NCBI GenBank assembly: GCA_964523525.1
Contig: CAZFYO010000001.1
Span: 65,068 to 129,067 of the forward strand
Length of the DNA stretch: 64,000 nt
Direction of reading: 5' to 3'
From: an uncultured Elusimicrobia bacterium
GTDB taxonomy: Bacteria; Elusimicrobiota; Elusimicrobia; 2-02-FULL-39-32
A program made the translations under genes and the position numbers. The notes beneath the pieces were generated by a model, which was not told where the DNA came from, made no database searches, and was given only the letters and a program-made list of their open reading frames with translations. This document shows positions 24,593 through 59,110 of the stretch, piece after piece; within the stretch, counting starts at the first letter, position 1, and the number at the start of each line of letters is the position of its first letter.

Positions 24593-24603
24593 GTAACCGA
24601 TTT

Positions 24604-26220
24604 ATGGCGAACCTGAAACGCAGCCATCGCCGCGCGAAAGTCCAGGGCCTGATCAAGGTCCTGCACGGCGCTTTGCTGTCGACGGCGGTCCTGGCTTCCA
24701 CCGTTTTCGCCGCGGGCGATACGGGCGGCCAGGTCGCGCAGTTCATGTCCTTCGGAGCGGGCGCTCGCTCGCTCTCCATGGGCCGCGCGTTCTTCGCGGT
24801 TTCCGATGACGCTTCAAGCGTTTACTCCAACCCGGCCGGCATGACCCAGCTTGAAAAGAAGGAGATCGGCTTCATGCAGGCGACCGTGGGCCTCGATTCC
24901 CAGCTGACCACCATGAACTACGTCCACCCTTCCAAGAAGGGCTGGGTCTGGGGCATCAACATGACCCAGATGAAGACGGGCGGGTTCGAGAAAGTGACGG
25001 TTAAGAGGAACAGCGCAGGAGAAATTTCGGAGCTCAAGAAGGGGGGCGATTTTTCGGACAGCAGCACGGGCTACATCTTCGGGTTCGGTAAAAAGGTGCT
25101 GAACACCCTGGCCGTGGGCATGTCGATCAAGCAGATTTCCCGGCAGCTGGACGATTCCGCCGATTCCGTCATCACCGCGGACGCCGCGGCGCTGTCCTAT
25201 CCCATGACCGACAATGCCAACTACCGCCTGGCGTTCGGCATCCAGAACATCTTCGCGATCCAGTCCGGCGATACCGATGACAAACTCCCGCTTTTGATCA
25301 AGGTCGGCAATTCCTATAAAGGCTTGAAAGACCGGATGCTGCTGGCGTTCGATATCACGCAGAACTTTACCCGGAACGTGACGGAGTGGAACATGGGCGC
25401 GGAATACTGGGTCTGGAAATACGTGGTGCTGCGGGCCGGCGTGGAAGGCAACCCCGGTTTGCGCCAGTCGAGCTTCGGACTGGGACTCCGCGTCAAAGGC
25501 GTGAACCTGGACATCGCGCAGGGCCTCACCGATTTGGGCGTTTCGTCCCGCATGGGCGCGTCCTGGAAGTTCGGCAAGTCGGTCATCGCGAAACGCGAAG
25601 ATACCGCCCGCCGGCTGATCCAGGAAGGCATCGCGGCGTACCAGCAGGGCAACTACGTGCTGGCGCTGGACCGGTTGAACCGTTCGCTTGATCTCGACCC
25701 GACCAACAACGATATCCGCACCCTGGTGGCGCGGCTCTCCGCCGTCGTGACGACGATGCCGTCGGCCGCCGGCGACAACGAAGTGGCCGGCATCATCCGC
25801 AAATCCATCCAGGATTACCTGAAAGGCGACAACAAGTCCGCCATCAATTCTCTGCGCTACGCTTATCTCGAAAAAGACCCGACCAACGAGAAGCTGCTCC
25901 AGGTGCTGAACAAGATCGAGAAGGAAGCCCGCGAGAAGATCACCGAGCGCGCCGATCAGAAGAAGAAAGGCTTCTCCTACATCGACCAGAAACTCTACGA
26001 CGCCCTGCAATCGATTTACGACGCGAAGTACGACAAGGCCATCATCCTCCTGCAGGAAGTGCTGGATCTGGACCCGCAGAACATCGAGGCCATGAAGCGT
26101 TTGGGATCGGCATTCTTCCTGATCGAACAAAAGGCCCAGGCCAAGGAAGTCTGGTCGCGCGCCATGGAGCTGGACCCCTCGGATCAAGTTATACAACAGT
26201 ACTTGAATCAGATCCCTTAG
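24604..26220 (+). CDS. PorV-like outer-membrane beta-barrel with a C-terminal TPR extension
   Basis: 538 aa with a signal peptide. Carries the motif GAGARSLSMGRAFFAVSDDASSVYSNPAGM. The barrel ends ...RMGASWKF at about aa 325. About 200 aa of TPR-like repeats follow (GNYVLALDRLNRSLDLDPTN, KYDKAIILLQEVLDLDPQN, AQAKEVWSRAMELDPSD). Confidence 0.75.
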   Translation: MANLKRSHRRAKVQGLIKVLHGALLSTAVLASTVFAAGDTGGQVAQFMSFGAGARSLSMGRAFFAVSDDASSVYSNPAGMTQLEKKEIGFMQATVGLDSQLTTMNYVHPSKKGWVWGINMTQMKTGGFEKVTVKRNSAGEISELKKGGDFSDSSTGYIFGFGKKVLNTLAVGMSIKQISRQLDDSADSVITADAAALSYPMTDNANYRLAFGIQNIFAIQSGDTDDKLPLLIKVGNSYKGLKDRMLLAFDITQNFTRNVTEWNMGAEYWVWKYVVLRAGVEGNPGLRQSSFGLGLRVKGVNLDIAQGLTDLGVSSRMGASWKFGKSVIAKREDTARRLIQEGIAAYQQGNYVLALDRLNRSLDLDPTNNDIRTLVARLSAVVTTMPSAAGDNEVAGIIRKSIQDYLKGDNKSAINSLRYAYLEKDPTNEKLLQVLNKIEKEAREKITERADQKKKGFSYIDQKLYDALQSIYDAKYDKAIILLQEVLDLDPQNIEAMKRLGSAFFLIEQKAQAKEVWSRAMELDPSDQVIQQYLNQIP

Positions 26221-26271
26221 TCTGTTATATAGCGATCGGGGGATATACTTAAGGAAAGAAGAGGTACGACA

Positions 26272-28239: not shown

Positions 28240-28248
28240 AGGATCGAC

Positions 28249-46496: not shown

Positions 46497-46961
46497 TTGA
46501 AGAAAAACGACAGAGTCTCACCGTCGAAAATCCGGGCGATCTGCAAGATCACCGGGGTTTCTCTCGTTTTTTTTGCCACTAACCTGAACCTGCTTTTCAG
46601 CGCCGAGCGCAAGGTCGCGAACCCCTCCAAATTTAAGGTCAATTATTCCCTGCAGAAATCGGGAGCTTCCGGCGGATCGGGGCCCAACGCTTTCGGCGCT
46701 CCGGGACTTTTCGGAGCCTCGGGCGTTTCGGGCGGATCGGCGGCCGCAGCCAGCATCGCGGTCAACATCCTCGACGAGCGGTTCTATCCCATCAAAGCCT
46801 TCGTCCTGCGGGACGTGACGGACACTTCCCGGGTCGAGTCCCTCTGGGACGGCCGCGACGTGTACGGCAAGGAATCTCCCGCCGGCAGATATTACGCCCA
46901 GCTTTCGATCGTGTATGGCGACGGCAGCCGCGAAACCAAGGTCTTCAAGTTCGTCAAATGA
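46497..46961 (+). CDS. Small secreted protein: signal/TM + Gly/Ser/Ala linker + FlgD-Ig-like domain
   Basis: TTG at 46497 preceded by GGGGGA. The ORF-track start at 46362 would overlap the divergent panD start. Hydrophobic ITGVSLVFFATNLNLLFS. Linker GASGGSGPNAFGAPGLFGASGVSGGSAAAA. C-terminal LWDGRDVYGKESPAGRYYAQLSIVYGDG matches the FlgD-Ig pattern. The stop overlaps the next ATG (ATGA). Confidence 0.6.
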   Translation: MKKNDRVSPSKIRAICKITGVSLVFFATNLNLLFSAERKVANPSKFKVNYSLQKSGASGGSGPNAFGAPGLFGASGVSGGSAAAASIAVNILDERFYPIKAFVLRDVTDTSRVESLWDGRDVYGKESPAGRYYAQLSIVYGDGSRETKVFKFVK

Positions 46962-49900
46962 TTTCCCCGATGAACCCCGCGCGCCGTTCCCTGACTTTTT
47001 CCTTCTCGCTCACCCTCGCCGTCCTGGGCTCCATCAGCGCCCTTTGGCAGAACGTTAACGCGGCGCCTCGCGTCGCCAGCACCATCCAGCTTTCGCAGAA
47101 CAGCGGGCTCGACCAGCCCATCCCCATGGCCGCCGCGTCGGACGGCACGCTCTACGTCGGCGGCTACTACAGCGGGACCGTGGTCAAAATCAATCCTTCG
47201 ACCAAGAAGGTCACGGCGCAGGCGGGCGGCATGCGTTATCCCGTCGATATCCGCCTCCACGACAACAAAGTTTATGTCAGCGCTCTGGACAGCGGCAACC
47301 AGGCGCAGATCATGGTCTTCGACCTCAACCTCAATTTCGTCAAAAGCATCGCCTCGCAGAACGGCTGGATCCACTCCTTCGTCATCGACTCGGACGCCGC
47401 GAAACTCTACTACGGCACCTGGGGCAAACTGCACGTCATCGATTTGAGCAACGATTCCCAGCGGCAGATCGCCGACCTGGGCAACTGGTTCTACGCGGTC
47501 TCGAGCATGAACCTCGACAAGGTCCGCAATAAGCTTTACCTCACGATCTACAACAGCGACCAGGCCACCGCCGAGATGGCGCACTTCGATTTAACCGGCG
47601 AAACGATCGGGACGCGGCTGGACATCGGCAAGAACCCCGTGGGCGTCGACAGCCGCTACGACAGCGACCGCGACGGCGACAAGCTTTTCATCACGCAGAT
47701 GTACAGCTCGAGCATTACGGTGGTGGACGTTTCGAACGACTCGGTCCAGCACCTGCCCAACATCTCCTGGCCCCAGCGGCTGATCGCGGACCGCGGCCGG
47801 CACAAACTTTACATCGTCGACAACTACACGGACAAGCTCCACATCCTGAACACGCAGACCCTGGCGCTGGAACACAGCATGACGCCGGGCGACGACCCTT
47901 CGGGCGTGGCCTTCGACGCCTCGCGCAACCGGATCTACACTTCCAACGTCTGGTCGCAGGACGTGAGCATCGTGGATTACAACAGCTTTGCTTTGATCGA
48001 GCGGATTTCTTTCGCGCCCGCGACACCTCTGGACGGCGAAATCGACGGCGGCGCCTTCTACCTTTCCAACGGACCCAACGGCGGCATCTACAAAATTGAT
48101 GCCGGCGACCACCGCATCCTCGAAAAGATCAATTTCTACGACTACATGCTGATGTCCGGGCTCTTCAACTTCCCGGCCGGCTTCTTAAACCTCTACGGCG
48201 GCGAGATGGAGCTTCCCGCCGCGGGCGGCGACCGCCGCGCCTACGCTTTGGACGAGTTCAACCAGGGGATCGCGGAATACAACCTGACGACTCATCGTTA
48301 CATCGGCAACATCCGACCCGACGGCATGCCGACTTCGCTGACGGTTTATAACGGCAAGCTTTACTTTCCTTATGTATCCAACTCAAATTTGTACCTGGGC
48401 ATTCATGACGGTTCGGCCATCACTTCCAAGCTGATCGGACCCAGCGACCGCGCTCAGGGCATCAAGATCAACCCGGCGACCGGCAAGTGCTATATCGCCG
48501 ACTACTCGAACCATAAGGTCGTGGTTTACGATTTGAGCACGTTCGCGGTGTTGCAGCGAATCGACGTGGGGGAATATCCCGCGAATATCGTCATCGATTC
48601 TGCTGTTAATCTGATTTACGTCACCAACTACGGCGGCAATTCCGTGACCGTGATCGATGGCGTCACGCACTCGGTGAAAGCGACGGTTCCCGTGGGCAAC
48701 GGGCCCTGGGGCATCGGCATCAACGCCGCCAAAAAACGGATTTACGTCGTGAACACGGATGATAACAGCCTGTCGGTGATCGACGCGCGGAACGTGCATT
48801 CGGTGATCGCGACGCTGCCCGTGGCGGGCGGCGCCAAGTTCTGCACCGTAGATACCGCGCGGCACCAGATTTTCGTGCCCGGCCAGACGGCCGGCGCGGT
48901 GACCGTGATCGAAGACGTCGCTGACGCGACTCCCCCCGTCTTCGATTGCCCCGCCGCCATACTTAAGGAAAACGTGGAGAGCGACTCCGTCGTGGTCAAT
49001 TTCAACACGCCGGCCGTGACGGACGACATGGATCCCAGCCCGACGATCACCCTGAGCCCCGCTTCGGGCAGCTCGTTCAATGTCGGCGTCACCACGGTCA
49101 CCGTCATCGCTCAGGATGCGGGCGGGAACATCGCACGCTGCGCCTTCACGGTCACCGTCAAAAAGAAGATTTGTCCCAGAAACGTCGGCGATCTGGCCGC
49201 CAATCCTATCGCGGGCCGCAAGATCGAGGTGAGCTGGTCGCCTTCCATCACGCCCGACATCAAGGAATACCGGATTTATATGGGCGAGGACAACGTGGAT
49301 TTCAATTCGCCTGCGGCCATCGTGCTGCCGACCGTCACGAGCTGGACCGCGCAGAACCTGCGCAGCGGCGGAACGTACAAATTTGTGGTACGCGCGATGC
49401 ACAAAGGCGGCTGCGAAGAAACCAACACGAACATCGTCGCCGCGACGGCTTTTGAGACGCCGCCCTGCCTGTCGGCCAGCATCAAGAGCCCCAAGAACGG
49501 GCAGAAAGTTTCGGGCGAACGCCTCACCGTGACGGCCGACATCCGCTGCGACAACTCCACCTCCGTAAAGTCCGTCCGTTTTGAATATCGCCGCGCCTGG
49601 GAAAACAGCTGGAAGAAAATCCCCGCCGCCAACTCCGAACATCCCAATCCCGATTTGCAGGCTCCCTACTTTGTCCATTGGAACGTGGAAGACCTGGCCA
49701 ACGGCGAGTATCTCGTCCGCTCGGTCGCGATCGACGCGCAGGGCAATGAAGATGACTGCCCTTCCTATGTCACCATCGTGGTGGACCATGCCGACCCCGA
49801 CTGCGAAGAGCGCCGGGACGACAACGGCAAGGTTGAAAAGATCGAGAAAATCGAAAACCAGAAAAAGAACACCGTGATCATCAGCGACGGTAAGATGTCC

Positions 49901-50581
49901 TGCCCGGCGGAAGTGCAGATCCCGGCGGGATGCCTCTCGAATGATGAAACGAAAGTCACCGTGAAGCTGAACCCGGACACTCCCAGGAGCGACCGCCTGA
50001 AAGCCGCGGGCAGCAGCATCGAGATCGAACTGCACAGCGGACAGAGCAATCTGGCCGGCGAAGCCACCCTGACGCTTCCTTACGTGGATGAGGACGACGA
50101 CGGGATCGTGGACGGCAAGAACATCCGCGCGCAAGATTTGGCCGTATTCTATTACAACCCCGCGCACCGCAAGTGGGACAAGATGAGCGGTTCCGTGAAT
50201 CGCAAAAATAAGACCGTGATTGCCCGCACCAGCCATTTCTCGCTTTTCGCCCTCTTCGACGCGCAGAGCGCGGCGGACGCCACGTTCACCCTGGGTGAAG
50301 CCTTCGCCTACCCGAACCCCGCGCGCGGCGGAAGGAACCCCATCCTCCATTTTGAGACGGGCGTCGCCGACGAGGTCACGATGCGGATCTACGACGCTTC
50401 GGGCGAGCTCAAACACACGATTTCTATGGGCAACTCGCCCACGGTCGTCAACGACAAATACGCCTACGAAGCCGTCTGGGACGTTTCGAACATCGCCAGC
50501 GGCGTCTACGTGGTGACTGCGACGGCCAAAAAAGACGGGCAAACGCTCCGCAAAAATTTCAAACTGGCCGTGGTGAAATAG
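46958..50581 (+). CDS. 1207-aa surface protein: YVTN-type beta-propeller repeats, HYR domain, Fn3/Ig-like modules, T9SS-type C-terminal sorting domain
   Basis: Signal peptide present. Repeated ...LYV/IYVTN...VxVID... units (e.g. NLIYVTNYGGNSVTVIDGVTHSVKATVPVGNGPWGIGI). HYR-like PPVFDCPAAILKENVESDSVVVNFNTPAVTDDMDPSP...GVTTVTVIAQDAGGNIARCAFTVTV. CTD reads FAYPNPARGG...VTMRIYDASGEL...ASGVYVVTATAKKDGQTLRKNFKLAVVK. Confidence 0.85.
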   Translation: MISPMNPARRSLTFSFSLTLAVLGSISALWQNVNAAPRVASTIQLSQNSGLDQPIPMAAASDGTLYVGGYYSGTVVKINPSTKKVTAQAGGMRYPVDIRLHDNKVYVSALDSGNQAQIMVFDLNLNFVKSIASQNGWIHSFVIDSDAAKLYYGTWGKLHVIDLSNDSQRQIADLGNWFYAVSSMNLDKVRNKLYLTIYNSDQATAEMAHFDLTGETIGTRLDIGKNPVGVDSRYDSDRDGDKLFITQMYSSSITVVDVSNDSVQHLPNISWPQRLIADRGRHKLYIVDNYTDKLHILNTQTLALEHSMTPGDDPSGVAFDASRNRIYTSNVWSQDVSIVDYNSFALIERISFAPATPLDGEIDGGAFYLSNGPNGGIYKIDAGDHRILEKINFYDYMLMSGLFNFPAGFLNLYGGEMELPAAGGDRRAYALDEFNQGIAEYNLTTHRYIGNIRPDGMPTSLTVYNGKLYFPYVSNSNLYLGIHDGSAITSKLIGPSDRAQGIKINPATGKCYIADYSNHKVVVYDLSTFAVLQRIDVGEYPANIVIDSAVNLIYVTNYGGNSVTVIDGVTHSVKATVPVGNGPWGIGINAAKKRIYVVNTDDNSLSVIDARNVHSVIATLPVAGGAKFCTVDTARHQIFVPGQTAGAVTVIEDVADATPPVFDCPAAILKENVESDSVVVNFNTPAVTDDMDPSPTITLSPASGSSFNVGVTTVTVIAQDAGGNIARCAFTVTVKKKICPRNVGDLAANPIAGRKIEVSWSPSITPDIKEYRIYMGEDNVDFNSPAAIVLPTVTSWTAQNLRSGGTYKFVVRAMHKGGCEETNTNIVAATAFETPPCLSASIKSPKNGQKVSGERLTVTADIRCDNSTSVKSVRFEYRRAWENSWKKIPAANSEHPNPDLQAPYFVHWNVEDLANGEYLVRSVAIDAQGNEDDCPSYVTIVVDHADPDCEERRDDNGKVEKIEKIENQKKNTVIISDGKMSCPAEVQIPAGCLSNDETKVTVKLNPDTPRSDRLKAAGSSIEIELHSGQSNLAGEATLTLPYVDEDDDGIVDGKNIRAQDLAVFYYNPAHRKWDKMSGSVNRKNKTVIARTSHFSLFALFDAQSAADATFTLGEAFAYPNPARGGRNPILHFETGVADEVTMRIYDASGELKHTISMGNSPTVVNDKYAYEAVWDVSNIASGVYVVTATAKKDGQTLRKNFKLAVVK

Positions 50582-50582
50582 G

Positions 50583-51596
50583 ATGACGCTGAACCGGCAC
50601 CTAAAAGCCTTCGGACTTTCGGTCGGGATCGCGGTTGGATCCTGGGCGCAGTCCTTCGCGGGCTCGGGCGCGGCTTTCCTTAAAATTCCCGTGGGCGCGC
50701 GCGCCGTCAGCATGGGCAACGCCTACACCGCCGCCGCCAATGACGTGACTTCGCTCCATTGGAACCCGGCGGGCCTTTCCCGCATGGGCCGCAAGGAGCT
50801 CAGCTTCATGCATGCGGAACTCTTCGCGGAACAGCGCTACGATTTCATCGGTTACGGCATGCCTCTGGGCGCGGGATCGCGCGAGGTCTCCGAGATCAAC
50901 GACGCGCCATTCCTGAGCGGCGACGCCAGGACGCGCACACCGTTTTCAAGCTCCTGGGCGATGGGATTCTCCGCGATTTACATGAGCCACGGCTCGCTCG
51001 AAGGACGCGACGAGGTAGGACGCAAGACCGGCGATTTCGGCGCGAGCGATTTCGCGTTCAGCCTCGGGCTCAGCCGCAAGGTCACCCAGCGCAGCTATTT
51101 CGGCGCAACGGTGAAGACGCTGCGCGAGTCTATCGGTTCAGAAAACGCTTCCGGTTTCGCCGCGGACCTGGGCTACATGACGCGCATGCCTCGCTTTTCT
51201 CTGGGACTTTCCGTGCTCAACCTCGGGCCCTCGCTCAAATTTGCCAGCGAAAAGTACGCGTTGCCGCTCACTCTCGCCACGGGCGCGGGCTACGCGATGG
51301 GCGGCGGGTTTATTCTTTCAGCCGACTACAAGCACCGGATGAACGACAACGTTTCGTCTCTCGGCGCGGGCGCGGAGTTCAACGTCATGAACAATTTTTC
51401 TCTCCGGGCCGGCTACATCAGCCAGCTCACGAACCTCAATAAATCGTCCGGCGGATCGAAGGGCCTCGCCGACCAGCTCACCGGTCTCGGCATGGGCTTC
51501 GGCTTCCGGGCCTTCAAGTCGCAGATCGACTACGCGCTCACCCCCATGGGCGAGCTCGGCCTCACGCAGCGCCTCTCCCTCACCGCCCGCTTCTAA
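50583..51596 (+). CDS. PorV-like outer-membrane beta-barrel
   Basis: 337 aa. Starts 1 nt after the CTD-protein stop. Has a signal peptide, the motif VGARAVSMGNAYTAAANDVTSLHWNPAGLS, and C-terminal ...QRLSLTARF. Confidence 0.8.
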   Translation: MTLNRHLKAFGLSVGIAVGSWAQSFAGSGAAFLKIPVGARAVSMGNAYTAAANDVTSLHWNPAGLSRMGRKELSFMHAELFAEQRYDFIGYGMPLGAGSREVSEINDAPFLSGDARTRTPFSSSWAMGFSAIYMSHGSLEGRDEVGRKTGDFGASDFAFSLGLSRKVTQRSYFGATVKTLRESIGSENASGFAADLGYMTRMPRFSLGLSVLNLGPSLKFASEKYALPLTLATGAGYAMGGGFILSADYKHRMNDNVSSLGAGAEFNVMNNFSLRAGYISQLTNLNKSSGGSKGLADQLTGLGMGFGFRAFKSQIDYALTPMGELGLTQRLSLTARF

Positions 51597-51900
51597 CCTC
51601 CCCCAGCATAATTGGATCCGTTTCTACAGTATGTGTAGGATAATTCTTTGTTAACCCCAACAATTGCGGCTTCGCGCGCTACAGCGGTTCATTGGGTGCC
51701 TCGATCGCGACAAAGCTGTTTACGTTCTCAGCGCCGAACGGCGTGTATGTGGACGCGGCGTCTCAGTCAAACTGGTATATCTCGAACCAAATAGTTTTTT
51801 AGAATGAAGCTAAGATTCAATTCACATCGGATTGAAAATAGTTAATTTTGATATACTCAAATCAGGCCGATTTAGAAAACTCACAAGAAGGAGACTTTGG

Positions 51901-52761
51901 ATGGGTGGAAAAATTAGGGGGCTTTTAACTTTAGGGCGCGAGAAATTTATTCCGCGTCCCTTTTTATTTTTAGGAGGCGACTTGAAACATTTTATTTTGG
52001 TGCTCTTAGGGGCATATACATTGATGCCAGGCATTGTTAAAGGGGTTGATATTTCTACCACAACCGCAAAGTTAGGGTGGGTAAGGTATGACGATAAAAT
52101 TGTTCTATATGATGCAAAGGGCAGCTCGATTAAAACTATAGAAACTAAAGAATATGATAAATCAGAAAAAGCAGAACATGGTGGTGGCGATGTTGTTGTT
52201 TATAGTTATCGAATTAGTGGTGATGTCTCCGAGTCTCATAAGTATGCATGGACCGTGACCGTAGAGGTAAATATGGTTGAAAGATGGCAGAAACAAATTT
52301 TTCGATACTTTGATGGTAGGGGGAATATGCTTTGGGAAAAAAATGGTGGGGCTCACGCCACAATTTCCGCCGATGGGGAAGTAGTACTATTATCTCATTG
52401 CGATCCCAATAGTTTAATGAATCTCACGGAGGGAAGCGAGGTGGCATATTGGGCAACGATATATTCAAGTAGTGGTGCTGAGTTGTGGAAATTTAGTGAA
52501 TTCTCTTTGAGGAATCCTGAAACAATATTTATTGAGAGAAACGGCCGATTTGGCTTTTTACGTAGTATGGTGCCAGAAAATAGAGTGATTTTTTTTGACA
52601 AACAAAAACAAAAAATATCTATATATAAAGGGTTTGGGAATGAAGTTTCAATAAATCATGAAGGATTCTTTTATGTTAAGAATCGAAAAAAAATCAGAGA
52701 CAAGTCAGGAAAAACTGTTCAAATAATTACCACTAAAGTTTTTGAGGGTAATTTTGACTAA
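51901..52761 (+). CDS. Hypothetical secreted protein (AT-rich block)
   Basis: ATG at 51901 with a strong RBS (AAGGAG, 7-nt spacer). Hydrophobic N-terminal segment HFILVLLGAYTLMPG. No family recognised. The ORF-track start at 51832 lacks an RBS. Confidence 0.55.
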   Translation: MGGKIRGLLTLGREKFIPRPFLFLGGDLKHFILVLLGAYTLMPGIVKGVDISTTTAKLGWVRYDDKIVLYDAKGSSIKTIETKEYDKSEKAEHGGGDVVVYSYRISGDVSESHKYAWTVTVEVNMVERWQKQIFRYFDGRGNMLWEKNGGAHATISADGEVVLLSHCDPNSLMNLTEGSEVAYWATIYSSSGAELWKFSEFSLRNPETIFIERNGRFGFLRSMVPENRVIFFDKQKQKISIYKGFGNEVSINHEGFFYVKNRKKIRDKSGKTVQIITTKVFEGNFD

Positions 52762-55700
52762 TAAATATTTGTTTTTCTTAGTTGTTCTAATTTCAAATAC
52801 GGCACTAGCTTACAGTTTAGACTCACCATTTCCTAACAGCCCAATAACCGATGACTTTGGTCCTAGAAGACTTGAAGGGGGGTTTAATTTTCATGGGGGT
52901 GTAGATTTTGGCGCTCCGTCTGGATCCTCGATCTATGTTGTTGAGTCGGGGACAATAACGGATATTACAGGATTCGGAAAGGATGCAAATGGAGGATATC
53001 GAATAAAGATAAAAGGTGACATTACAAACAGAAATATTTTTTATATGCATATGTTTACAGCTACGGGAACGGTTACACCTTCAAATCCTTTACGTCACGG
53101 AGACTTTCAAATTGAAAAATCAGGAGGATTGCTTAGAATACGTAGACTGTCCTTAAATGAGGTTTATGATGTTGACGACCATATCGATATGAACACTTTA
53201 ATTGGGCCTGTTGGAAATTCTGGCCAGGTGACGGGACCTCATTTGCACCTTCAAGTAGATGCGGGGACTGCTATCGATAACCCGTTTTTGTATGTAAATC
53301 ATCCGACCAGTGAGTTTTCTGTTACGATCAGTACTAACCTAGTTCATAAAACATCATATTCGCTTACTGATGCGCAGAAATTCAGTATACAGTTTGATAT
53401 TGACTCAAGTCCGGGTAATGACCTAGATGCTGTTAAGGTTCTAGTTGATAACAATGCACTATACTCACCGACCGATTCTTCGGGAACCTTTGCGTTTAAG
53501 TATGGTGGGAGACCTGGTGAATATCGAACATTAAGCTCTTCAATATCTGCTGGTGAGCTAGTAAATCTAAACTCCCAGCATCCATTTATGGGGATGTCTA
53601 ATTTTTCAGTCGTTGCGGTAGATAAAAATGTAAATCGGTTTACTTTGCGTGATGTTGACTTGTCAAGTTTTAGCTTATCAAACCACACTATTACGATATT
53701 GCCTTACAACGTTCTGGGCGTAGTTTCTGGGACAGCAACATACAATTTTTCGATATATGGCAATGAGTCTGATGAGGTTGTTGACAGTTCGGGAACAGCA
53801 AAACCAAATGGAAGCATTGTTTTAGACGGTTCAATTGGCATGAGCATTAATTGCTCATCTGCCGTATCATCGGTGCAGCTTGTCGGTGAAACAAATCAAG
53901 GGTTATTTTCTCAGACCACTCAGGCGACTTATTTTGGAGAATCATATTATGGGGTTCATTTTCCTACAAATACAGGCCAAACACTACCGCCAGGGACTTA
54001 CAGTATAAATTACGCGTGCGGATCGGAGAATAGAACATATAATTTCAGCGTTCAATCCCCAATTAGCACAAAAACAATAATATCTGGTTCAGGGGCGATG
54101 TCATTTGTTTCGAATATTCCCACATTTGTAGACGAATACTATTCTTCTCCGGATTTTTACATTGCGGGTTCGACATATATCAGAATATCGTATAGTTTTT
54201 TAACAACACGATTATCCAGTCCAACCCCAAATCCAAATAGTTGTGGTTTGTCTTGTTTTGGTGGAAGCACCAAGCCCAATGTTTACGTTAGACTATTTAA
54301 TTCTACATCGACAACATTGCCGCACTCCAGTTATTCCGATGCCCTAACGCAGTTTAATTGGTCAATCAAAAATATTAGCCCCTCTTCGTGCGCAGTGCCT
54401 GTAAACACGGAGATAATTCCCAACCCTGGGAATACCTATACTTGCACTGATGAGTATGAGTTTGCAAGTCCTGTCAATTTTATTGCCCGGCCATATTTTT
54501 TTCTAAGGGTTGAGGTTAACAATGGGGCATGCAGTGTTGTCCCACACGATTGTTCAATCGATCTTTCAAGTCCTGTGTGGACAACCGGAGTTTATTTAGG
54601 AGCAACGGCTATTACAGAAAATCATCGAATACTAATCGGCCCAAATGTAGGCGTTGGCACAGTAACCTCAATTACGCCTATAGGGCCTTATATTAGCATT
54701 ACACCTAGAGATGGTGTTAATTTGACATTTGCGCAGATTCAAAAAATTGGAATCACTAACGTAAACACGGGCACTTGGGCGAATATCATTGCGTGGATTA
54801 AGAGGTTATTGAATTTGGGTAGTAACGTGTACGAAATTTCGACAACAGCAGAATATTCTGGAGATATAACCCTGAAATTAAGATACGACCATACCCAAGT
54901 TTCCCCTTATGAGGAGCAATATCTAAGAATCGTTCAGTTCGATTCGGATGGAAATGCGGATGATATCACAGTTTCTATTGACACTGTCACAAAAGAAATA
55001 GTGGGTGTTACGACAGTTTTGGGCACATTTGGGATTGCTGTTCCGGAAGATTTAGGCCTACCCTCAGCCATTACTGACTTATCAATATCCCAGGTTACAA
55101 CAAGTAGCGTAACACTATGCTGGACCGCGCCTTCGGATGACGGCACGTTGGAATCAACGATCGCCTACGACCTGCGCTACGCCACTTTTCCCATCACGAC
55201 CTCCGATCAGTTTTTTGACGCAACGCCCGTGCCGGATATCTCGACCCCCAACACGCGCGGCACGCTCGAAACGTTTGTCGTTTCCGGGCTGGCGGGTTTA
55301 ACCACATACTATTTCGCTCTGATGTCCGCAGATGACGATGGTAATGTCGGTGCAGTGAGTAATAGCCCATCGACAAACACTCTTCTTGGTCCGCCACGGG
55401 CCTCAACAGGATTTTCTGGAACGGTACTGTCAACCATGGCGATCTTTTGGTCTTGGTCCGACAATTCCGGTACGGAAAGCGGATATCGCGTCGTGACTTC
55501 AAGCGGTGGTGTCATTTCGGGGGATCTCGCCGTCAATTCAACCATCTATGTGCAGTTGAATCTTTTGCCCAATGCGTCTCACCAAAACTATGTTCAGGCT
55601 TTTAATGCGGCAGGGGTGTCAAATTCAACAGAGTCGTTAAGCTGGACTCTCGCTAACCCTCCGACCGGAAGCGCATTGGTGGATGTGCAGGTGTCCAGTA

Positions 55701-57808
55701 TTTCCTTGACTTGGAACGCTAACAGTAATCCCGCCATTACGATTTATACTGTAGAAAGCTCTACCAACTCAGATTTTTCACTCGTCCAGGTCTCCACTGT
55801 TGCCGGAACGAGCTTCACCGGCCAAAATTTGATGGCCGACACCTCTTATTACTTGCGAGTTAAAGCTGAGAATGGAGCGGGTATATCCACGGTCTATGAC
55901 TCTACCCTTTCTACGCGCACAAGAGCATCAGGGGAAACCACGCCTCCGACTATAGCCATAAGTTCGCCTGTAGCTGGGAGCACTCTTGCCGCGATCGTAA
56001 CGTTATTCGGAACAGCCGCGGACAATGTAGCGCTGCTTAAAGTGGAAGTCCAAATTGATACCGGCTCATTCAATTTGGCCGTAGGCACATCAAACTGGAG
56101 CTACGTCTTCTATGCTACTGGGGTCGCGAACGGCACACACACCATTACGGCGCTCGCAACAGATGTAAATATGAATGTCCAATCCACATCGATGGTATAT
56201 ATGGTATTGAACGATACTCAGGCGCCCACGACCCCTACCGGTTTGGCGGCTACACCTGTTTCGGGCGCGCAAATCAATCTTTCCTGGAGCGCTTCGTCCG
56301 ACAATATCGCGGTTTCAGCGTACAAGGTCTTCAGAAATACGGTGCAAATCGCCACTTCTGCCCTTACATCCTATAACGACATGGGTTTATCGGCGCAAAC
56401 CACGTACACCTACACGGTGGCCGCTTTTGACGCCACTGGAAATGTTTCCTCGACCTCAACAGCCGTAACAACTACTACCTTGATTAGCAACGAAGTCGTC
56501 GCCGTCATCCGCGAGGATTGTTCAGGGTATTCAAACTGCTACAACTCGCTTAAGGATTGGGAATCGAACTACGGCGGCATCAGCTTCGGGACCTGCACTG
56601 TGGGAAGCCTGACCTGCGCCAAGAAGAGCGCCGTGGCTAAAATCGAGGGCAGTTGGGTGGACTCGGACACCCAGCCCGTGACGTTTAACGGGTGGAACAC
56701 CAGCACGACGTTTTACATCCGGATTTATACGTCCACGGAAGCCCGGCATAACGGCACCATCGGCACGGGCTATCGGATGGAAATGGACTATGAAACCCCG
56801 ATCACCATTCAAGAAAACTTTGTTAGCGTTGACGGCGTCTCTTTCCGGAAGGGAGGCAGCAATCCGGGGGAAATAGTGCTGGTTGACTACGAAACCGACG
56901 CCAATTCCCGCATCGAAGTCAAAAACTGCTATTTGAGGGGCGATTACAGCGGTTCCATCAGCGGCATATCCGTGAATGGCGGCAGCAGCAATCAAAAAAG
57001 AGTCTATTTGTGGAACAACATTCTGGAAAATTTCAAAGGCAGTTCCTGCCACGGCATCAAATGCGCGTTTGGTACCGTTCATGCCTATAACAACACGGTT
57101 GTTAATTCCGCCATCGGCATTCGGAGGACGGCCGGAACCCTGATCGCTAAAAACAACCTTTCCTACAACAACACCACCGACTATATGGGGACATTTTCCA
57201 GCTCCTCGACCCATAACCTTTCCAAGGACCAAACGGCGCCATCCACGAATACATATTTTCGGGGCGCGACCGTCTTATTCGTGAGCACAGCAAATAATTT
57301 CCACTTGGTCAGCACGGATACTGGCGCCGTGGACATGGGAACGGACCTGTTCCCTGAGTTCAGCAATGACATCGACGGGCATACTCGTTCCGGCTCCTGG
57401 GATATCGGCGCGGATGAGTATAATGGCGGAGGCGGTGGCGCTCCCGCATTCGGTCTGAACCAAATCCCTGTGGAAACGCCGCCTTTGGCGCCCTTTGTTG
57501 ATCCAACATTCAAATTGAACGAGGCTTACGCGTATCCCAATCCTGCTTACAACGGAAGCAGGCCTACCATTCACATCGAATGCGGCATCGCGGACTCGGT
57601 TGAAATCCGAATTTATGATGTTGCCGGAGAGCTCCTGCATGACAGGCGGATCGACGGCCCGCCCGTGATAATCAACAACATGTACGCTTACGAATACACT
57701 TGGGATTCAGGCGGACAGGCCAGCGGCGTCTATGTCTATGTCGTTCTCGCCAAAAAAGCGGGTGATAACCCTATTAAGATCATGAAGAAGTTGGCGCTGA
57801 TCAAATGA
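52742..57808 (+). CDS. 1688-aa secreted multidomain protein: N-terminal M23 metallopeptidase, unknown ~600-aa region, Fn3 and Ig-like repeats, right-handed beta-helix-like region, T9SS-type CTD
   Basis: Signal peptide YLFFLVVLISNTALA. M23 motifs FHGGVDF (HxxxD) and GPHLHLQV (HxH). Fn3-like units (e.g. PSAITDLSISQVTTSSVTLCWTAPSDDG...YYFALMSADDDGNVG and LAATPVSGAQINLSWSASSDNIAVSAYKVF). Repetitive N-x-hydrophobic turns (YNNTVVNSAIGIRR, KNNLSYNNT). CTD reads YAYPNPAYNGSRPTIHIECG...VEIRIYDVAGELL...ASGVYVYVVLAKK. The start codon is uncertain (TTG at 52742, 52754 or 52769). Confidence 0.8.
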   Translation: MRVILTNKYLFFLVVLISNTALAYSLDSPFPNSPITDDFGPRRLEGGFNFHGGVDFGAPSGSSIYVVESGTITDITGFGKDANGGYRIKIKGDITNRNIFYMHMFTATGTVTPSNPLRHGDFQIEKSGGLLRIRRLSLNEVYDVDDHIDMNTLIGPVGNSGQVTGPHLHLQVDAGTAIDNPFLYVNHPTSEFSVTISTNLVHKTSYSLTDAQKFSIQFDIDSSPGNDLDAVKVLVDNNALYSPTDSSGTFAFKYGGRPGEYRTLSSSISAGELVNLNSQHPFMGMSNFSVVAVDKNVNRFTLRDVDLSSFSLSNHTITILPYNVLGVVSGTATYNFSIYGNESDEVVDSSGTAKPNGSIVLDGSIGMSINCSSAVSSVQLVGETNQGLFSQTTQATYFGESYYGVHFPTNTGQTLPPGTYSINYACGSENRTYNFSVQSPISTKTIISGSGAMSFVSNIPTFVDEYYSSPDFYIAGSTYIRISYSFLTTRLSSPTPNPNSCGLSCFGGSTKPNVYVRLFNSTSTTLPHSSYSDALTQFNWSIKNISPSSCAVPVNTEIIPNPGNTYTCTDEYEFASPVNFIARPYFFLRVEVNNGACSVVPHDCSIDLSSPVWTTGVYLGATAITENHRILIGPNVGVGTVTSITPIGPYISITPRDGVNLTFAQIQKIGITNVNTGTWANIIAWIKRLLNLGSNVYEISTTAEYSGDITLKLRYDHTQVSPYEEQYLRIVQFDSDGNADDITVSIDTVTKEIVGVTTVLGTFGIAVPEDLGLPSAITDLSISQVTTSSVTLCWTAPSDDGTLESTIAYDLRYATFPITTSDQFFDATPVPDISTPNTRGTLETFVVSGLAGLTTYYFALMSADDDGNVGAVSNSPSTNTLLGPPRASTGFSGTVLSTMAIFWSWSDNSGTESGYRVVTSSGGVISGDLAVNSTIYVQLNLLPNASHQNYVQAFNAAGVSNSTESLSWTLANPPTGSALVDVQVSSISLTWNANSNPAITIYTVESSTNSDFSLVQVSTVAGTSFTGQNLMADTSYYLRVKAENGAGISTVYDSTLSTRTRASGETTPPTIAISSPVAGSTLAAIVTLFGTAADNVALLKVEVQIDTGSFNLAVGTSNWSYVFYATGVANGTHTITALATDVNMNVQSTSMVYMVLNDTQAPTTPTGLAATPVSGAQINLSWSASSDNIAVSAYKVFRNTVQIATSALTSYNDMGLSAQTTYTYTVAAFDATGNVSSTSTAVTTTTLISNEVVAVIREDCSGYSNCYNSLKDWESNYGGISFGTCTVGSLTCAKKSAVAKIEGSWVDSDTQPVTFNGWNTSTTFYIRIYTSTEARHNGTIGTGYRMEMDYETPITIQENFVSVDGVSFRKGGSNPGEIVLVDYETDANSRIEVKNCYLRGDYSGSISGISVNGGSSNQKRVYLWNNILENFKGSSCHGIKCAFGTVHAYNNTVVNSAIGIRRTAGTLIAKNNLSYNNTTDYMGTFSSSSTHNLSKDQTAPSTNTYFRGATVLFVSTANNFHLVSTDTGAVDMGTDLFPEFSNDIDGHTRSGSWDIGADEYNGGGGGAPAFGLNQIPVETPPLAPFVDPTFKLNEAYAYPNPAYNGSRPTIHIECGIADSVEIRIYDVAGELLHDRRIDGPPVIINNMYAYEYTWDSGGQASGVYVYVVLAKKAGDNPIKIMKKLALIK

Positions 57809-58764
57809 TGCCTATTAAACGCGGTATCGCGCTGTGTCTTGGACTGCTGATGGCGCCGGTTTGTCATCCAAGCAGGGCAGATGCGGCGGCCGGCGCGAGT
57901 TTCCTTAAGTTGGGCGTTGGCGCCCGGGCGGCTGGGCTTGGGTCGGCTTATACCGCCATTGCGGACGACGTCACCGCGCTTCACTGGAATCCCGCAGGCC
58001 TTTCCGGCATGACCAAACGCGAAGTTTCCGCCATGCATGCGGAGCTCTATGCCGAAACGCGCTACGATTTCATCGGATACGCTCACCCCACGTCCCTTCT
58101 GAATATGGGGATATCAGCCGTTTACCTCACCCAAGGGTCCATCGATGGAAGATCGGTCAGCGGCTCTAAGACGGGCGATTTCAGCGCCAACGATCTTCTT
58201 GTAACCCTAGGTGCCGGCAAAATGATGATCGGCAACGCGGCTGTGGGCGCCAACCTTAAACTGATCCAATCTCAAATTGCCGGATCCTCCGCCAGAGGGT
58301 TTGCGTTCGATCTGGGGACTTCGTTTAAGCCCGTTCTTCCCATGGTGGGAAGCAACATTAAATTGGGACTTGCCCTGCAGAACATTGGCCCGAGGATGAA
58401 CTTTTCCAATGAGTCTTACGATTTGCCTCTGACCGCCGCCGCCGGGCTCGGATATCAGCCGTTCAACTCACTTCTTTTATCCGTGGACGTGAAGCGGCAT
58501 ATTTATGAATCCCGGACGCTCCTCAGCATCGGCACGGAATTCAGTCCGTTATCATTGATTTCGCTCCGCGCAGGGTACATCAGCGGCGCAGGCAGCCGGT
58601 CCGATGTCCTCGAACGGTCGAATGTTCAGTCTCAACTGTCAGGGCTTTCAGGCCTTGGAATGGGCATGGGATTTAAGCTCGGTTGGGGAAGCCTGGACTA
58701 TGCCTTTACTCCCGCGGGAGAACTGGGCAATGTCCAGCGGATATCGCTTTCCATGAAATTTTAA
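57805..58764 (+). CDS. PorV-like outer-membrane beta-barrel
   Basis: 319 aa. The ATG overlaps the CTD-protein stop (ATGA). Motif VGARAAGLGSAYTAIADDVTALHWNPAGLS. Close paralog of 50583..51596 (MHAELYAETRYDFIGY vs MHAELFAEQRYDFIGY). C-terminal ...QRISLSMKF. Confidence 0.8.
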   Translation: MMPIKRGIALCLGLLMAPVCHPSRADAAAGASFLKLGVGARAAGLGSAYTAIADDVTALHWNPAGLSGMTKREVSAMHAELYAETRYDFIGYAHPTSLLNMGISAVYLTQGSIDGRSVSGSKTGDFSANDLLVTLGAGKMMIGNAAVGANLKLIQSQIAGSSARGFAFDLGTSFKPVLPMVGSNIKLGLALQNIGPRMNFSNESYDLPLTAAAGLGYQPFNSLLLSVDVKRHIYESRTLLSIGTEFSPLSLISLRAGYISGAGSRSDVLERSNVQSQLSGLSGLGMGMGFKLGWGSLDYAFTPAGELGNVQRISLSMKF

Positions 58765-58774
58765 GGAGCATCAG

Positions 58775-59110
58775 ATGAAATCGACCAGATTCACAGCGAT
58801 CATCATGGCATTGTTGTTCGGGTTTGCCGTTAATGTTTTTGCCAGAAAGGCCACCGCCGTCATGCGTTTCGTCAAAGTTATGGGAACGGTGCAATCCGTC
58901 AACAGTTCTCAAATGGTGATCACCGATTCGTCCAATAAATCCATCACGATCCCCCTGAATACCCAAACGAAAGTTGATAAAAGCGATGAATCCGCTCTCG
59001 CCTCGCAAATCCAGGTCGGCGACCGCGTCAGCGTCCGTTATGATGCCGCCACCAGGACTGCCGTCCGCATTGACATCCTCCAGCCTCTGAATACCGAAGT
59101 TAAGGAATAG
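58775..59110 (+). CDS. Small hypothetical secreted protein
   Basis: 111 aa with signal peptide FTAIIMALLFGFAVNVFA. No family recognised. Confidence 0.55.
   Translation: MKSTRFTAIIMALLFGFAVNVFARKATAVMRFVKVMGTVQSVNSSQMVITDSSNKSITIPLNTQTKVDKSDESALASQIQVGDRVSVRYDAATRTAVRIDILQPLNTEVKE

What the first reader, a model, noticed from the sequence alone, without database searches (positions are those of the whole stretch)
46497..58764. One-to-one gene pairing of T9SS-type CTD cargo proteins with private PorV-like barrels
Two giant proteins ending in a Por-secretion-tail-like CTD (46958-50581 and 52742-57808) are each followed immediately by a ~320-340-aa barrel gene, with a 1-nt gap at 50583 and an ATGA overlap at 57805. 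The barrels carry the motif GARAxxxGxAYTAxAxDVTxLHWNPAGLS. The same pairing occurs at 24197/24604, and a fourth barrel lies at 13053-14504. In the characterised Bacteroidota T9SS, a single PorV shuttles many CTD cargos, and its gene is not paired with individual cargo genes. Here the tight translational coupling suggests dedicated cargo/barrel pairs. That is closer to two-partner or autotransporter-like logic built from T9SS parts. No PorK/L/M/N, SprA/Sov or PorU candidates are visible in this window.
Basis: partly seen in the sequence, partly recalled or inferred. Interest (0 to 1): 0.7.

Follow-up and report, generated by a model that had tools for sequence, protein, structure and literature searches.

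The report
Surface proteins paired with private PorV-like barrels
In this Elusimicrobiota genome fragment, every secreted protein carrying a type-IX-style C-terminal tag is encoded right next to its own PorV-like outer-membrane barrel; the pairing is conserved in many uncultured phyla and probably gives each cargo a dedicated carrier or anchor, in a phylum where no type IX secretion machine has been reported.

Summary
Two large secreted proteins, 46958-50581 and 52742-57808, end in related type-A-like T9SS C-terminal domains (CTDs). Each is followed by a PorV/PorQ-family barrel gene, at a 1-nt gap and at an ATGA overlap. A third pair lies at 24197/24604. All three CTD-bearing ORFs in the window are paired.

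The window is from Elusimicrobiota. In 80 related genome loci, 76 of 90 evaluable barrels have an adjacent same-strand CTD gene (odds ratio 99). From the cargo side, 48 of 67 close CTD relatives have a barrel within 1.2 kb, and 19 have none, so the pairing is strong but not absolute.

The barrel models as a plugged 14-strand FadL fold. Its best match among solved structures is F. johnsoniae PorV. I read it as a cognate carrier or anchor, not a private translocation pore. The closest precedents are type-B CTD with PorP/SprF, and PorZ with PorQ.

No T9SS core gene is in the window. Published surveys found none in the Elusimicrobia they examined.

The third pair belongs to a conserved Elusimicrobiota operon. 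In relatives this operon links giant CTD proteins (7,830-14,788 aa), a barrel-TPR fusion and a FliG-like protein to FlbD-MotA-MotB.

Verdict: new variant of a known kind. Interest 0.72.

The parts
46497..46961 (+). Small secreted protein (about 154 aa from the TTG at 46497). It has a Gly/Ser-rich linker and an Ig-like-looking C-terminus, and its stop overlaps the cargo1 start (ATGA). Function unknown; possibly the first gene of the operon.
   Evidence: Sequence read. No Pfam hit. Not detected by my CTD HMM. No relatives in the fetched loci.
46958..50581 (+). Cargo 1: a 1207-aa secreted protein with a signal peptide, YVTN/NHL beta-propeller repeats, HYR, fn3 and Big_7 domains, and a C-terminal T9SS type-A-like CTD (aa 1114-1207, nt 50297-50578).
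   Evidence: TIGR04183 26.4 bits, cutoff 23; PF18962 23.1 bits, below its cutoff of 27. CTD HMM 71.5 bits.
50583..51596 (+). Barrel 1: a 337-aa PorV/PorQ-family outer-membrane beta-barrel with a signal peptide and the conserved N-terminal plug motif.
   Evidence: NF033709 151.8 bits (cutoff 90). PorQ model 111.7 bits and PorV model 59.9 bits, both below their equivalog cutoffs. Pfam UPF0164 31.3 bits (cutoff 21.4).
51832..52761 (+). ORF of 309 aa with no family match, in the low-GC segment (0.35-0.41). It overlaps the cargo2 start by 20 nt.
   Evidence: No relatives in the fetched loci.
52742..57808 (+). Cargo 2: a 1688-aa secreted protein with a signal peptide, an N-terminal M23 peptidase domain (HGGVD and HLH motifs), three fn3 domains, a Big_7 domain, and a C-terminal CTD (aa 1594-1688, nt 57521-57805). 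GC jumps from about 0.40 to about 0.52 near 55.0 kb, so the gene looks chimeric.
   Evidence: CTD HMM 75.0 bits. AF2 model of the CTD has pLDDT 88.5 and is an 8-strand beta-sandwich.
57805..58764 (+). Barrel 2: a 319-aa PorV/PorQ-family barrel. It models as 14 strands with a plug region at residues 31-70.
   Evidence: NF033709 163.3 bits. AF2 pLDDT 88.4. Best PDB fold matches are F. johnsoniae PorV 8gl6_F and 6h3i_F, TM-score 0.71-0.72. A profile of 32 barrels hits PorV 6h3i_F at E = 1.9e-23.
58775..59110 (+). Small secreted DUF5666 protein directly after barrel 2. It is conserved at the same position only in the closest relative (L163).
24197..24592 (+). CTD-only protein (131 aa: signal peptide plus CTD ending IRKIGVVH). 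In relatives the same CTD type ends proteins of 7,830-14,788 aa.
   Evidence: (FlgD_ig 26.4 bits).
24604..26220 (+). Barrel 3: a PorV/PorQ-family barrel fused to a C-terminal TPR domain (538 aa).
   Evidence: NF033709 96 bits. Barrel-TPR relatives appear.
26272..28239 (+). Membrane protein with FliG middle and C-terminal domains plus TPR (655 aa). It is a conserved neighbour of the barrel-TPR fusion in Elusimicrobiota.
28249..35252 (+). A 1660-aa coiled-coil protein ending in TPR, and a 674-aa protein with a Pro-rich start and a coiled coil. The 674-aa protein shares a conserved region with the 'Y' gene of related clusters.
13053..14504 (-). Distant PorV/FadL-like barrel fused to a coiled coil and a LysM domain (483 aa). 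It has no CTD partner.
   Evidence: NF033709 34.9 bits, below the cutoff of 90. Barrel HMM 45 bits. BLAST E about 1e-7 to other barrels.

Best explanation
Each barrel is a PorV/PorQ-family outer-membrane protein with a plugged 14-strand FadL fold. It is made together with the secreted protein encoded directly upstream. I propose that the cargo's C-terminal beta-sandwich domain docks non-covalently onto its cognate barrel, and that the barrel then carries the cargo and holds it on the cell surface. This is how PorP/SprF barrels hold type-B CTD adhesins, how PorQ holds PorZ and how PorV holds PorU. On this reading the barrel is a carrier or anchor, not the export pore, and passage across the outer membrane needs another channel that is not in this window. 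What is shown: the gene pairing, its conservation, the family and fold of both parts, their co-inheritance as a module with exchangeable passengers, and translational coupling. What is inferred: physical CTD-barrel binding, surface anchoring, and pair specificity. Barrels fused to TPR or LysM domains, and the operon linking a barrel-TPR fusion to a FliG-like protein and MotAB in relatives, suggest that some carriers are tied to the cell wall or to a proton-driven motor.
For: Family and fold: NF033709 is passed by all three barrels. AF2 model with pLDDT 88.4 and 14 strands. The best PDB matches are PorV 8gl6_F and 6h3i_F, then TodX and FadL. The barrel profile hits PorV at E = 1.9e-23, aligned through the plug motif. 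CTD: TIGR04183 is passed by cargo1, 18 of 39 partner proteins hit PF18962, and the CTD models as a beta-sandwich. Pairing: 3 of 3 in the window; 76 of 90 evaluable barrels have an adjacent CTD gene; odds ratio 99, p = 2e-57; 31 of 67 CTD-selected metagenome loci have a directly adjacent barrel and 17 more have one within 1.2 kb. Module behaviour: CTD and barrel similarities correlate (Mantel r = 0.73, 0 of 2000 permutations reach it). In four genome pairs with two modules each, CTDs match the CTD next to the orthologous barrel at 64-85% identity, against 42-59% for the CTD of the other, paralogous module in the same comparison. In 10 of 41 nearest-barrel comparisons the passengers are unrelated, including both window pairs. 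CTD-only partners of 99-147 aa exist, which fits a stable CTD-barrel complex. Precedents: PMC9143113, PMC12618676, PMC10202324 and PMC10994853 (the CTD binds the extracellular loops of the carrier).
Against: No binding was tested or modelled. The co-divergence is also what plain operon orthology would give. 19 of 67 close CTD relatives have no barrel nearby, and their downstream genes are housekeeping, so a CTD of this type can work without a gene-linked barrel. The barrels are 319-337 aa, shorter than the 402-residue PorV chain of 6h3i_F, and the predicted inter-strand segments are mostly short; this may point to a different binding mode. The translocon is unidentified. Whether the CTD is kept or cleaved is unknown.
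Confidence: 0.6

Rival explanations
1. This is a self-contained two-partner-like export system. Each barrel is the private translocation pore for the protein encoded upstream, and no other machinery is needed.
For: Tight one-to-one gene coupling. No T9SS core gene in the window. Published surveys found no T9SS in the Elusimicrobia they examined.
Against: The barrel has 14 strands, and its conserved N-terminal segment aligns with the start of PorV; I read that segment as a lumen plug, from general knowledge of the FadL fold. It gave no Omp85, POTRA or autotransporter family match at E <= 0.01. Partners range from 99 aa to 14,788 aa. The targeting domain is C-terminal and Ig-like, not an N-terminal TPS domain. 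28% of close CTD relatives have no nearby barrel.
Confidence: 0.08
2. This is an ordinary, complete T9SS encoded elsewhere in the genome (SprA/Sov, GldKLMN, PorU, a general PorV). The barrels here are extra specialised carriers for particular cargos, exactly as PorP/SprF are for type-B cargos in Flavobacterium.
For: CTD and barrel are homologous to T9SS parts. The same kind of pairing occurs in FCB-group MAGs, a group that does have T9SS. Unpaired CTD proteins exist. Only 64 kb of a 361,897-bp contig was visible.
Against: TXSScan found no T9SS outside Bacteroidetes and scored zero known secretion systems for both Elusimicrobia genomes it held. A motility-gene survey of Elusimicrobiota reported no Gld system apart from GldAFG in one genome. 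None of the 120 listed barrel relatives is named PorV or PorQ proper. No paper in the searched library links Elusimicrobia to T9SS in its own text.
Confidence: 0.22
3. The coupling is functional and does not involve CTD handling. The barrel is a FadL-type uptake channel for a hydrophobic or amphipathic product that the neighbouring surface enzyme or binder releases, a nutrient-capture pair loosely like SusC/SusD.
For: The fold is FadL/TodX-like. Weak Toluene_X hits. In FCB-group loci the pair sits next to a TonB-dependent receptor. Some partners are glycoside hydrolases.
Against: The only element shared by all partners is the CTD; the passengers are unrelated. CTD-only partners have no enzyme or binding domain. 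The CTD and the barrel diverge together. The barrels are closer to PorV than to FadL in both sequence and structure.
Confidence: 0.1

Closest known systems
Type-B CTD cargo with PorP/SprF-like carrier barrels (Flavobacterium johnsoniae SprB/SprF; P. gingivalis PG1035/PorP)
   Same: Each cargo gene sits next to its own outer-membrane barrel gene. The barrel acts as a dedicated carrier and surface anchor through the cargo's retained CTD. Some cargos are orphans that share a carrier. Giant adhesins are among the cargos. Some carriers are tied to the cell wall (PorP-PorE). Sources: PMC12618676, PMC9143113.
   Different: The barrels here are PorV/PorQ family (NF033709), and no PorP/SprF model appeared among the hits at E <= 0.01. 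The window CTDs hit the type-A models TIGR04183/PF18962, although 11 of 39 partner proteins from related loci also hit CHU_C. The host is Elusimicrobiota, where no T9SS translocon or GldLM motor is known. The wall- or periplasm-binding part (TPR, LysM) is fused to the barrel rather than being a separate PorE.
PorV, the general type-A CTD carrier of the T9SS (PDB 6h3i and 8gl6, chain F)
   Same: Same family, fold and N-terminal plug motif. It is the best sequence and structure match among solved structures. PorV binds CTDs through its extracellular loops (PMC10994853). From my own knowledge, porU and porV are adjacent genes in P. gingivalis, and PorU keeps its CTD bound to PorV (PMC10202324).
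   Different: The PorV equivalog model is far from met (59.9 and 54.5 bits, cutoff 250). There are several paralogues per genome, each beside a cargo gene, instead of one carrier for all type-A cargos. The barrels are shorter (319-337 aa, against 402 residues for the PorV chain of 6h3i_F). Docking on SprA cannot be assessed.
PorQ with PorZ in the T9SS attachment complex
   Same: A PorV-like barrel permanently holds one specific type-A CTD protein through its uncleaved CTD (PMC10202324, PMC10947112). The window barrels score higher on the PorQ model than on the PorV model (111.7 and 107.2 bits).
   Different: The scores are below the PorQ equivalog cutoff of 220. The partner proteins are not PorZ (only the CTD region matches). 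From my own knowledge, porQ and porZ are not adjacent genes in P. gingivalis.
Treponema UPF0164 / FadL-like outer-membrane proteins (Pfam PF03687)
   Same: The window barrels pass the Pfam UPF0164 gathering score (31.3 and 46.1 bits, cutoff 21.4).
   Different: The three Spirochaete relatives fetched have no adjacent CTD gene.
BamG with BamH of the Bacteroidota BAM complex
   Same: A FadL-homologous barrel binds an extracellular protein through its loops (PMC12578637). There is a weak BamG hit (18.7 bits).
   Different: The score is far below the cutoff of 250. There is no BAM context and no CTD involvement.

Membership tests
PorV/PorQ family (NCBIfam NF033709) | Whole-protein HMM score at or above the curated cutoff of 90 bits | tested here: met
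   Barrel1 151.8, barrel2 163.3 and barrel3 96.0 bits. The 13053-14504 barrel scores only 34.9 bits and is not a member by this test.
PorV/PorQ family (NCBIfam NF033709) | FadL-type 14-strand beta-barrel with an N-terminal plug segment | tested here: met
   AF2 model with pLDDT 88.4, 14 strands and a confident N-terminal segment at residues 31-70. Foldseek's best PDB hits are PorV 8gl6_F and 6h3i_F (TM-score 0.71-0.72), then TodX and FadL.
PorV proper (NF033710 equivalog) | Equivalog score at or above 250 bits | tested here: not met
   59.9 and 54.5 bits.
PorV proper (NF033710 equivalog) | A single general carrier for all type-A CTD cargos, whose gene is not tied to individual cargos | tested here: not met
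   At least three paralogues lie within 64 kb, each directly after a CTD gene. 76 of 90 relatives have the same arrangement.
PorV proper (NF033710 equivalog) | Docks on the lateral opening of the SprA/Sov translocon | not testable with these tools
   No SprA candidate is in the window, and no complex prediction tool was available.
PorQ (NF033711 equivalog) | Equivalog score at or above 220 bits | tested here: not met
   111.7 and 107.2 bits.
PorP/SprF type-B carriers | Match to a PorP/SprF family model | tested here: not met
   No PorP/SprF model appears among the Pfam or NCBIfam hits at E <= 0.01.
PorP/SprF type-B carriers | Carrier gene adjacent to its cognate CTD cargo gene | tested here: met
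   This is a functional resemblance only, not membership.
T9SS type-A CTD (TIGR04183 / PF18962) | HMM score above the curated cutoff at the extreme C-terminus | tested here: inconclusive
   Cargo1 scores 26.4 bits on TIGR04183 (cutoff 23) but 23.1 bits on PF18962 (cutoff 27). Cargo2 has no hit at E <= 0.01 yet is 49% identical to cargo1's CTD. 18 of 39 partner proteins hit PF18962 and 11 hit CHU_C.
T9SS type-A CTD (TIGR04183 / PF18962) | Seven-stranded Ig-like beta-sandwich fold | tested here: inconclusive
   The AF2 model (pLDDT 88.5) is an 8-strand sandwich. The PDB matches are generic Ig-like folds. PorU 6za2 is at ranks 9-10 (TM-score 0.65 for chain A, 19% identity); I take the matched part to be its CTD.
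Canonical T9SS (whole system) | Presence of SprA/Sov, GldK/L/M/N (PorK-N) and PorU | tested here: inconclusive
   None among the window's proteins. The literature reports none in the Elusimicrobia genomes examined.
Two-partner secretion (T5bSS) | Omp85-type TpsB barrel with POTRA domains, and an N-terminal TPS domain in the cargo | tested here: not met
   The barrels gave no Omp85 or POTRA family match at E <= 0.01 and their fold is FadL/PorV-like. The shared cargo element is a C-terminal Ig-like domain.
Autotransporter (T5aSS) | Passenger and 12-strand barrel in one polypeptide | tested here: not met
   The genes are separate and the barrel has 14 strands.

The most novel reading that the evidence does not exclude
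Elusimicrobiota and neighbouring candidate phyla may run a surface-display or gliding-like system built from T9SS-type CTDs and PorV-like carriers but without the SprA/GldKLMN machine. In this reading, CTD-tagged proteins, including adhesin-sized giants of 8,000-15,000 aa, ride on cognate barrels. The barrel-TPR subtype would be coupled to the 'orphan' FliG-like/FlbD/MotAB motor whose role in these non-flagellated bacteria is described as enigmatic. CTD-carrier modules would then be older or more widespread than the Bacteroidota T9SS.
Probability: 0.25. Interest if true: 0.9.

Novelty: new variant of a known kind. Interest (0 to 1): 0.72.

Why it matters
T9SS is treated as a system of the Bacteroidota and the wider FCB group, with one general carrier (PorV) for type-A signals. 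Here the same two parts, a CTD and a PorV-like barrel, form many gene-linked private pairs in Elusimicrobiota, Firestonebacteria, Desantisbacteria, FCPU426 and others. The published surveys I could read found no known secretion system in the two Elusimicrobia genomes they held.

If the carriers work without SprA and GldKLMN, three things follow. There is an undiscovered outer-membrane export route. It becomes possible to ask how carrier-CTD specificity is encoded. And there are many natural cognate pairs available for testing.

The linked operon (giant CTD protein, barrel-TPR, FliG-like protein, FlbD-MotAB) also offers a concrete and testable role for the unexplained fliG and motAB genes of non-flagellated Elusimicrobiota.

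Tried and rejected
1. PorU-PorV explanation for the FCB-group pairs. The roughly 1,100-aa partners form one homologous cluster, but no PorU model appeared among their NCBIfam hits. They sit beside TonB-dependent receptors.

2. Walking along the window's own contig (361,897 bp) to look for T9SS core genes. One look-up found no record and the other returned only contigs of about 3 kb.

3. Getting a T9SS core query sequence (SprA, GldK-N, PorU) from the fetched loci. None was present, so no direct homology search for core genes in Elusimicrobiota could be run.

4. Profile-based locus scans with broad alignments failed for lack of conserved stretches. Narrower alignments worked.

5. A homology search with the 100-aa CTD returned a single hit because of the word index. 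That hit showed the same CTD-barrel-DUF5666 order as the window.

6. I suspected a FliF-like N-terminal part in the FliG-like protein. There was no FliF family hit even at E <= 1, so I dropped the idea.

7. Promoter and terminator scans of 46-59.5 kb gave fewer sites than shuffled sequence and are uninformative.

8. A fused-chain AlphaFold run of CTD plus barrel was not attempted. Chimeric sequences are not accepted, and the tool returns no interface measures.

9. Chance adjacency is rejected.

10. A conserved third gene in the pairs is rejected. Apart from CTD proteins and barrels, no gene family recurs next to the Elusimicrobial pairs. The genes inserted between cargo and barrel are heterogeneous; by eye they include an IS200/RayT-like transposase, a four-helix-bundle protein and a small secreted protein (not checked against family libraries).

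Full report
**Observation**

The ORF map matches the finding. Cargo1 is 46958-50581 (1207 aa). Barrel1 is 50583-51596 (337 aa) and starts 1 nt after cargo1's TAG stop. Cargo2 is 52742-57808 (1688 aa). Barrel2 is 57805-58764 (319 aa) and overlaps cargo2 by ATGA.

By inspection of the N-termini, all four proteins begin with a signal-peptide-like hydrophobic stretch.

Cargo1 carries YVTN/NHL beta-propeller repeats and HYR, fn3 and Big_7 domains. Cargo2 carries an N-terminal M23 peptidase domain, three fn3 domains and a Big_7 domain.

The two C-terminal domains (CTDs) are 49% identical to each other. They share the motifs YPNPA, RIYD..GEL, SGVY and a basic C-terminus.

Cargo1's CTD passes TIGR04183 (26.4 bits, cutoff 23). 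Cargo2's CTD gets no library hit.

Both barrels pass the NCBIfam PorV/PorQ-family model (151.8 and 163.3 bits, cutoff 90) and Pfam UPF0164. They fall well short of the PorV, PorQ and 'PorV2' equivalog models.

The third pair is also real. 24197-24592 encodes a 131-aa protein that is only a signal peptide plus a CTD. After an 11-nt gap, 24604-26220 encodes a barrel (96 bits) fused to TPR repeats.

The barrel at 13053-14504(-) is only a distant relative (34.9 bits). It is fused to a coiled coil and a LysM domain and has no CTD partner.

A CTD HMM seeded with the window's CTDs finds exactly three CTD ORFs in the window. Each sits directly upstream of a barrel.

**Source and surroundings**

Barrel relatives are named 'PorV/PorQ family protein' and come from Elusimicrobia/Elusimicrobiota MAGs. 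The window's contig is 361,897 bp.

The other window genes with family matches are mostly housekeeping: aconitase, succinate dehydrogenase, an Omp85-family protein, GyrA, HemD, MetH, Tgt, QueA/C/F, PanD and PMT-type glycosyltransferases. There is no match to any T9SS core component.

Unit 2 is compositionally foreign. GC is 0.35-0.41 from 51.5 to 55.0 kb, against 0.58-0.62 in unit 1. There is a jump inside cargo2 near 55.0 kb. This suggests that a passenger segment was grafted onto a CTD-barrel module.

**Conservation, from the barrel side**

A scan of one genome per species returned 80 loci. They come from Elusimicrobiota (including Endomicrobiales), Firestonebacteria, Desantisbacteria, Goldiibacteriota, FCPU426, Hydrogenedentota, Poribacteria, Calditrichota, Ignavibacteria, Marinimicrobia, Bacteroidota-labelled MAGs and Spirochaetes.

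- Of 90 evaluable barrels, 69 have a same-strand gene ending in a CTD directly upstream, and 7 more have one only directly downstream.
- In Elusimicrobiota the figure is 32 of 37. In the three Spirochaete loci it is none.
- Genes immediately upstream of a barrel end in a CTD in 68 of 83 cases, against 28 of 639 for all other genes (odds ratio 99, p = 2e-57).

**Conservation, from the cargo side**

A metagenome scan with the window's CTD subtype gave 80 loci at 49-64% identity.

- Of 67 evaluable loci, 31 have a directly adjacent barrel, often with a 4-nt overlap.
- 17 more have a barrel within 1.2 kb, usually after one small inserted gene. By eye these include an IS200/RayT-like transposase, a four-helix-bundle protein and a small secreted protein.
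- 19 have none. In those, the downstream genes are housekeeping genes or another cargo gene.
- 14 of the 19 unpaired cases come from four related samples with redundant contigs.

So the pairing is a strong rule but not an absolute one.

**Module behaviour**

Partner proteins in Elusimicrobiota are very diverse. They include beta-propellers, fn3, TIG, PKD, CarboxypepD_reg, F5/8-type C, GH113, glucoamylase and beta-helix domains. No Peptidase_C25 appears among the 25 families listed of 63.

CTD similarity tracks barrel similarity (Mantel r = 0.73; 0 of 2000 permutations reach it).

In four genome pairs that each carry two modules, a CTD is 64-85% identical to the CTD attached to the orthologous barrel. 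It is only 42-59% identical to the CTD of the other, paralogous module. There is therefore no homogenisation of CTDs within a genome. This fits pair-specific recognition, but it is also what simple operon orthology would give.

In 10 of 41 nearest-barrel comparisons the passengers are unrelated. This includes both window pairs. CTD plus barrel therefore behaves as a cassette with exchangeable passengers.

**What the barrel is**

The AF2 model of barrel2 (pLDDT 88.4) is a 14-strand barrel with a confident N-terminal segment that carries the conserved motif.

- Foldseek's best PDB hits are F. johnsoniae PorV in the translocon complexes 8gl6 and 6h3i (TM-score 0.71-0.72). TodX, FadL and BamG follow.
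- A profile of 32 barrels hits PorV at E = 1.9e-23, aligned from the N-terminus through the plug motif.

A plugged 14-strand barrel cannot pass proteins of 1,200-14,000 aa. This argues against the two-partner or autotransporter reading.

The CTD model (pLDDT 88.5) is an Ig-like sandwich. The PDB matches are generic Ig-like folds. PorU (6za2) appears among them at 19% identity; I take the matched part to be its CTD.

**Mechanism proposed**

[quoted passage not shown] Type-B CTD cargos use private PorP/SprF carriers that are genetically linked to them and anchor them on the surface (PMC12618676, PMC9143113). PorZ and PorU keep their CTDs bound to PorQ and PorV (PMC10202324).

The window's pairs fit this carrier-and-anchor logic. 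They use PorV/PorQ-family barrels and type-A-like CTDs. CTD-only partners and barrels fused to TPR or LysM domains echo the PorP-PorE link to the cell wall.

Binding, surface anchoring and pair specificity are inferred, not shown.

**Is there a T9SS in this organism?**

This cannot be decided from 64 kb, and the source contig could not be reached. The indirect evidence is as follows.

- TXSScan found T9SS only in Bacteroidetes. It scored zero known secretion systems for Elusimicrobium minutum and for the TG1 endosymbiont Rs-D17.
- A survey of Elusimicrobiota motility genes reports no Gld system apart from GldAFG in one genome.
- No paper in the searched library links Elusimicrobia to T9SS in its own text.

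**Linked operon**

The third pair is part of a conserved Elusimicrobiota cluster. The FliG-like+TPR protein (26272-28239) has more than 120 full-length relatives, and those that carry an organism name are from Elusimicrobia/Elusimicrobiota or unclassified bacteria.

- In five contexts the gene order is: giant protein of 7,830-14,788 aa; barrel-TPR; FliG-like protein; coiled-coil protein X; Pro-rich coiled-coil protein Y; FlbD; MotA; MotB. In one of them (L169) an opposite-strand gene sits between the giant protein and the barrel.
- In the three checked (L165, L167, L168), the giant protein ends in the same CTD subtype as the window's 131-aa ORF...IRKIGV(I/V)H, with a close variant in L165.
- Protein Y shares a conserved region with window 33228-35252.
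- The window and its syntenic relative L166 have a CTD-only gene in place of the giant, and no FlbD-MotAB in the cluster.
- Two other contexts have FliG-like, FlbD and MotA without a barrel; the next gene is MotB in one and MotB-like in the other.

Uzun et al. (bioRxiv 10.1101/2022.07.08.499144) note that most free-living Elusimicrobiota lack flagellar structural genes yet carry numerous fliG, flbD and motAB genes whose role is unclear.

The layout resembles SprB/SprF plus a proton-driven motor in gliding Bacteroidota. This is only an analogy at present.

**Verdict**

The feature is a new variant of the known cognate carrier/CTD principle, in phyla outside the known range of T9SS. It comes with a plausible but untested link to an orphan FliG/MotAB motor.

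Noticed in passing
window 24197-35911 (+); loci L165-L170: There is a conserved Elusimicrobiota operon: a CTD protein (giant, 7,830-14,788 aa, or CTD-only), a PorV-like barrel fused to TPR, a FliG-like+TPR membrane protein, two coiled-coil proteins and, in most relatives, FlbD-MotA-MotB. It may explain the 'enigmatic' fliG and motAB genes of non-flagellated Elusimicrobiota.
   Followed up: partly
window 51500-55000: GC drops sharply to 0.35-0.41, against about 0.60 in the neighbouring unit. The low-GC stretch covers ORF 51832-52761 and the N-terminal M23-peptidase part of cargo2. GC jumps inside the gene near 55.0 kb, which suggests a horizontally acquired or chimeric passenger.
   Followed up: partly
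L045:3812-10927, L075:3155-10936, L062:7207-10993, L069:3935-7727: In Calditrichota, Ignavibacteria and Bacteroidota-labelled MAGs, a PorV/PorQ-family barrel that is neither PorV nor PorQ proper sits in a conserved trio. The other two genes are a SusC-like TonB-dependent receptor and a CTD protein of about 1,100 aa with no family match (no PorU model among its hits).
   Followed up: partly
window 13053-14504 (-): A distant PorV/FadL-like barrel is fused to a long coiled coil and a C-terminal LysM domain. It could be an outer-membrane-to-peptidoglycan tether. A gene with a histidine-kinase-type ATPase domain lies directly downstream (11776-13056).
   Followed up: no
window 58775-59110; L163:1500-1877: A small secreted DUF5666 protein follows barrel 2. 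It is conserved at the same position (52% identity) only in the closest relative.
   Followed up: yes
L095:2872-3549, L086:6311-7000, L105:4998-5393: Small genes have inserted exactly between a CTD cargo gene and the next gene. By eye they look like IS200/RayT-like transposases and a four-helix-bundle protein; they were not checked against family libraries. In L105 the next gene is the barrel; in L086 and L095 it is a second cargo gene (followed by a weak barrel in L095). The junction tolerates insertions.
   Followed up: partly
window 46497-46961: A 154-aa secreted ORF overlaps the cargo1 start by ATGA. It has a Gly/Ser-rich linker and a C-terminal segment that looks Ig/FlgD-like. It has no family match and no relatives in the fetched loci.
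   Followed up: partly
window 35977-36576: An HNH endonuclease gene lies between the FliG-like cluster and cinA. It is conserved at the same position in the syntenic relative L166.
   Followed up: no
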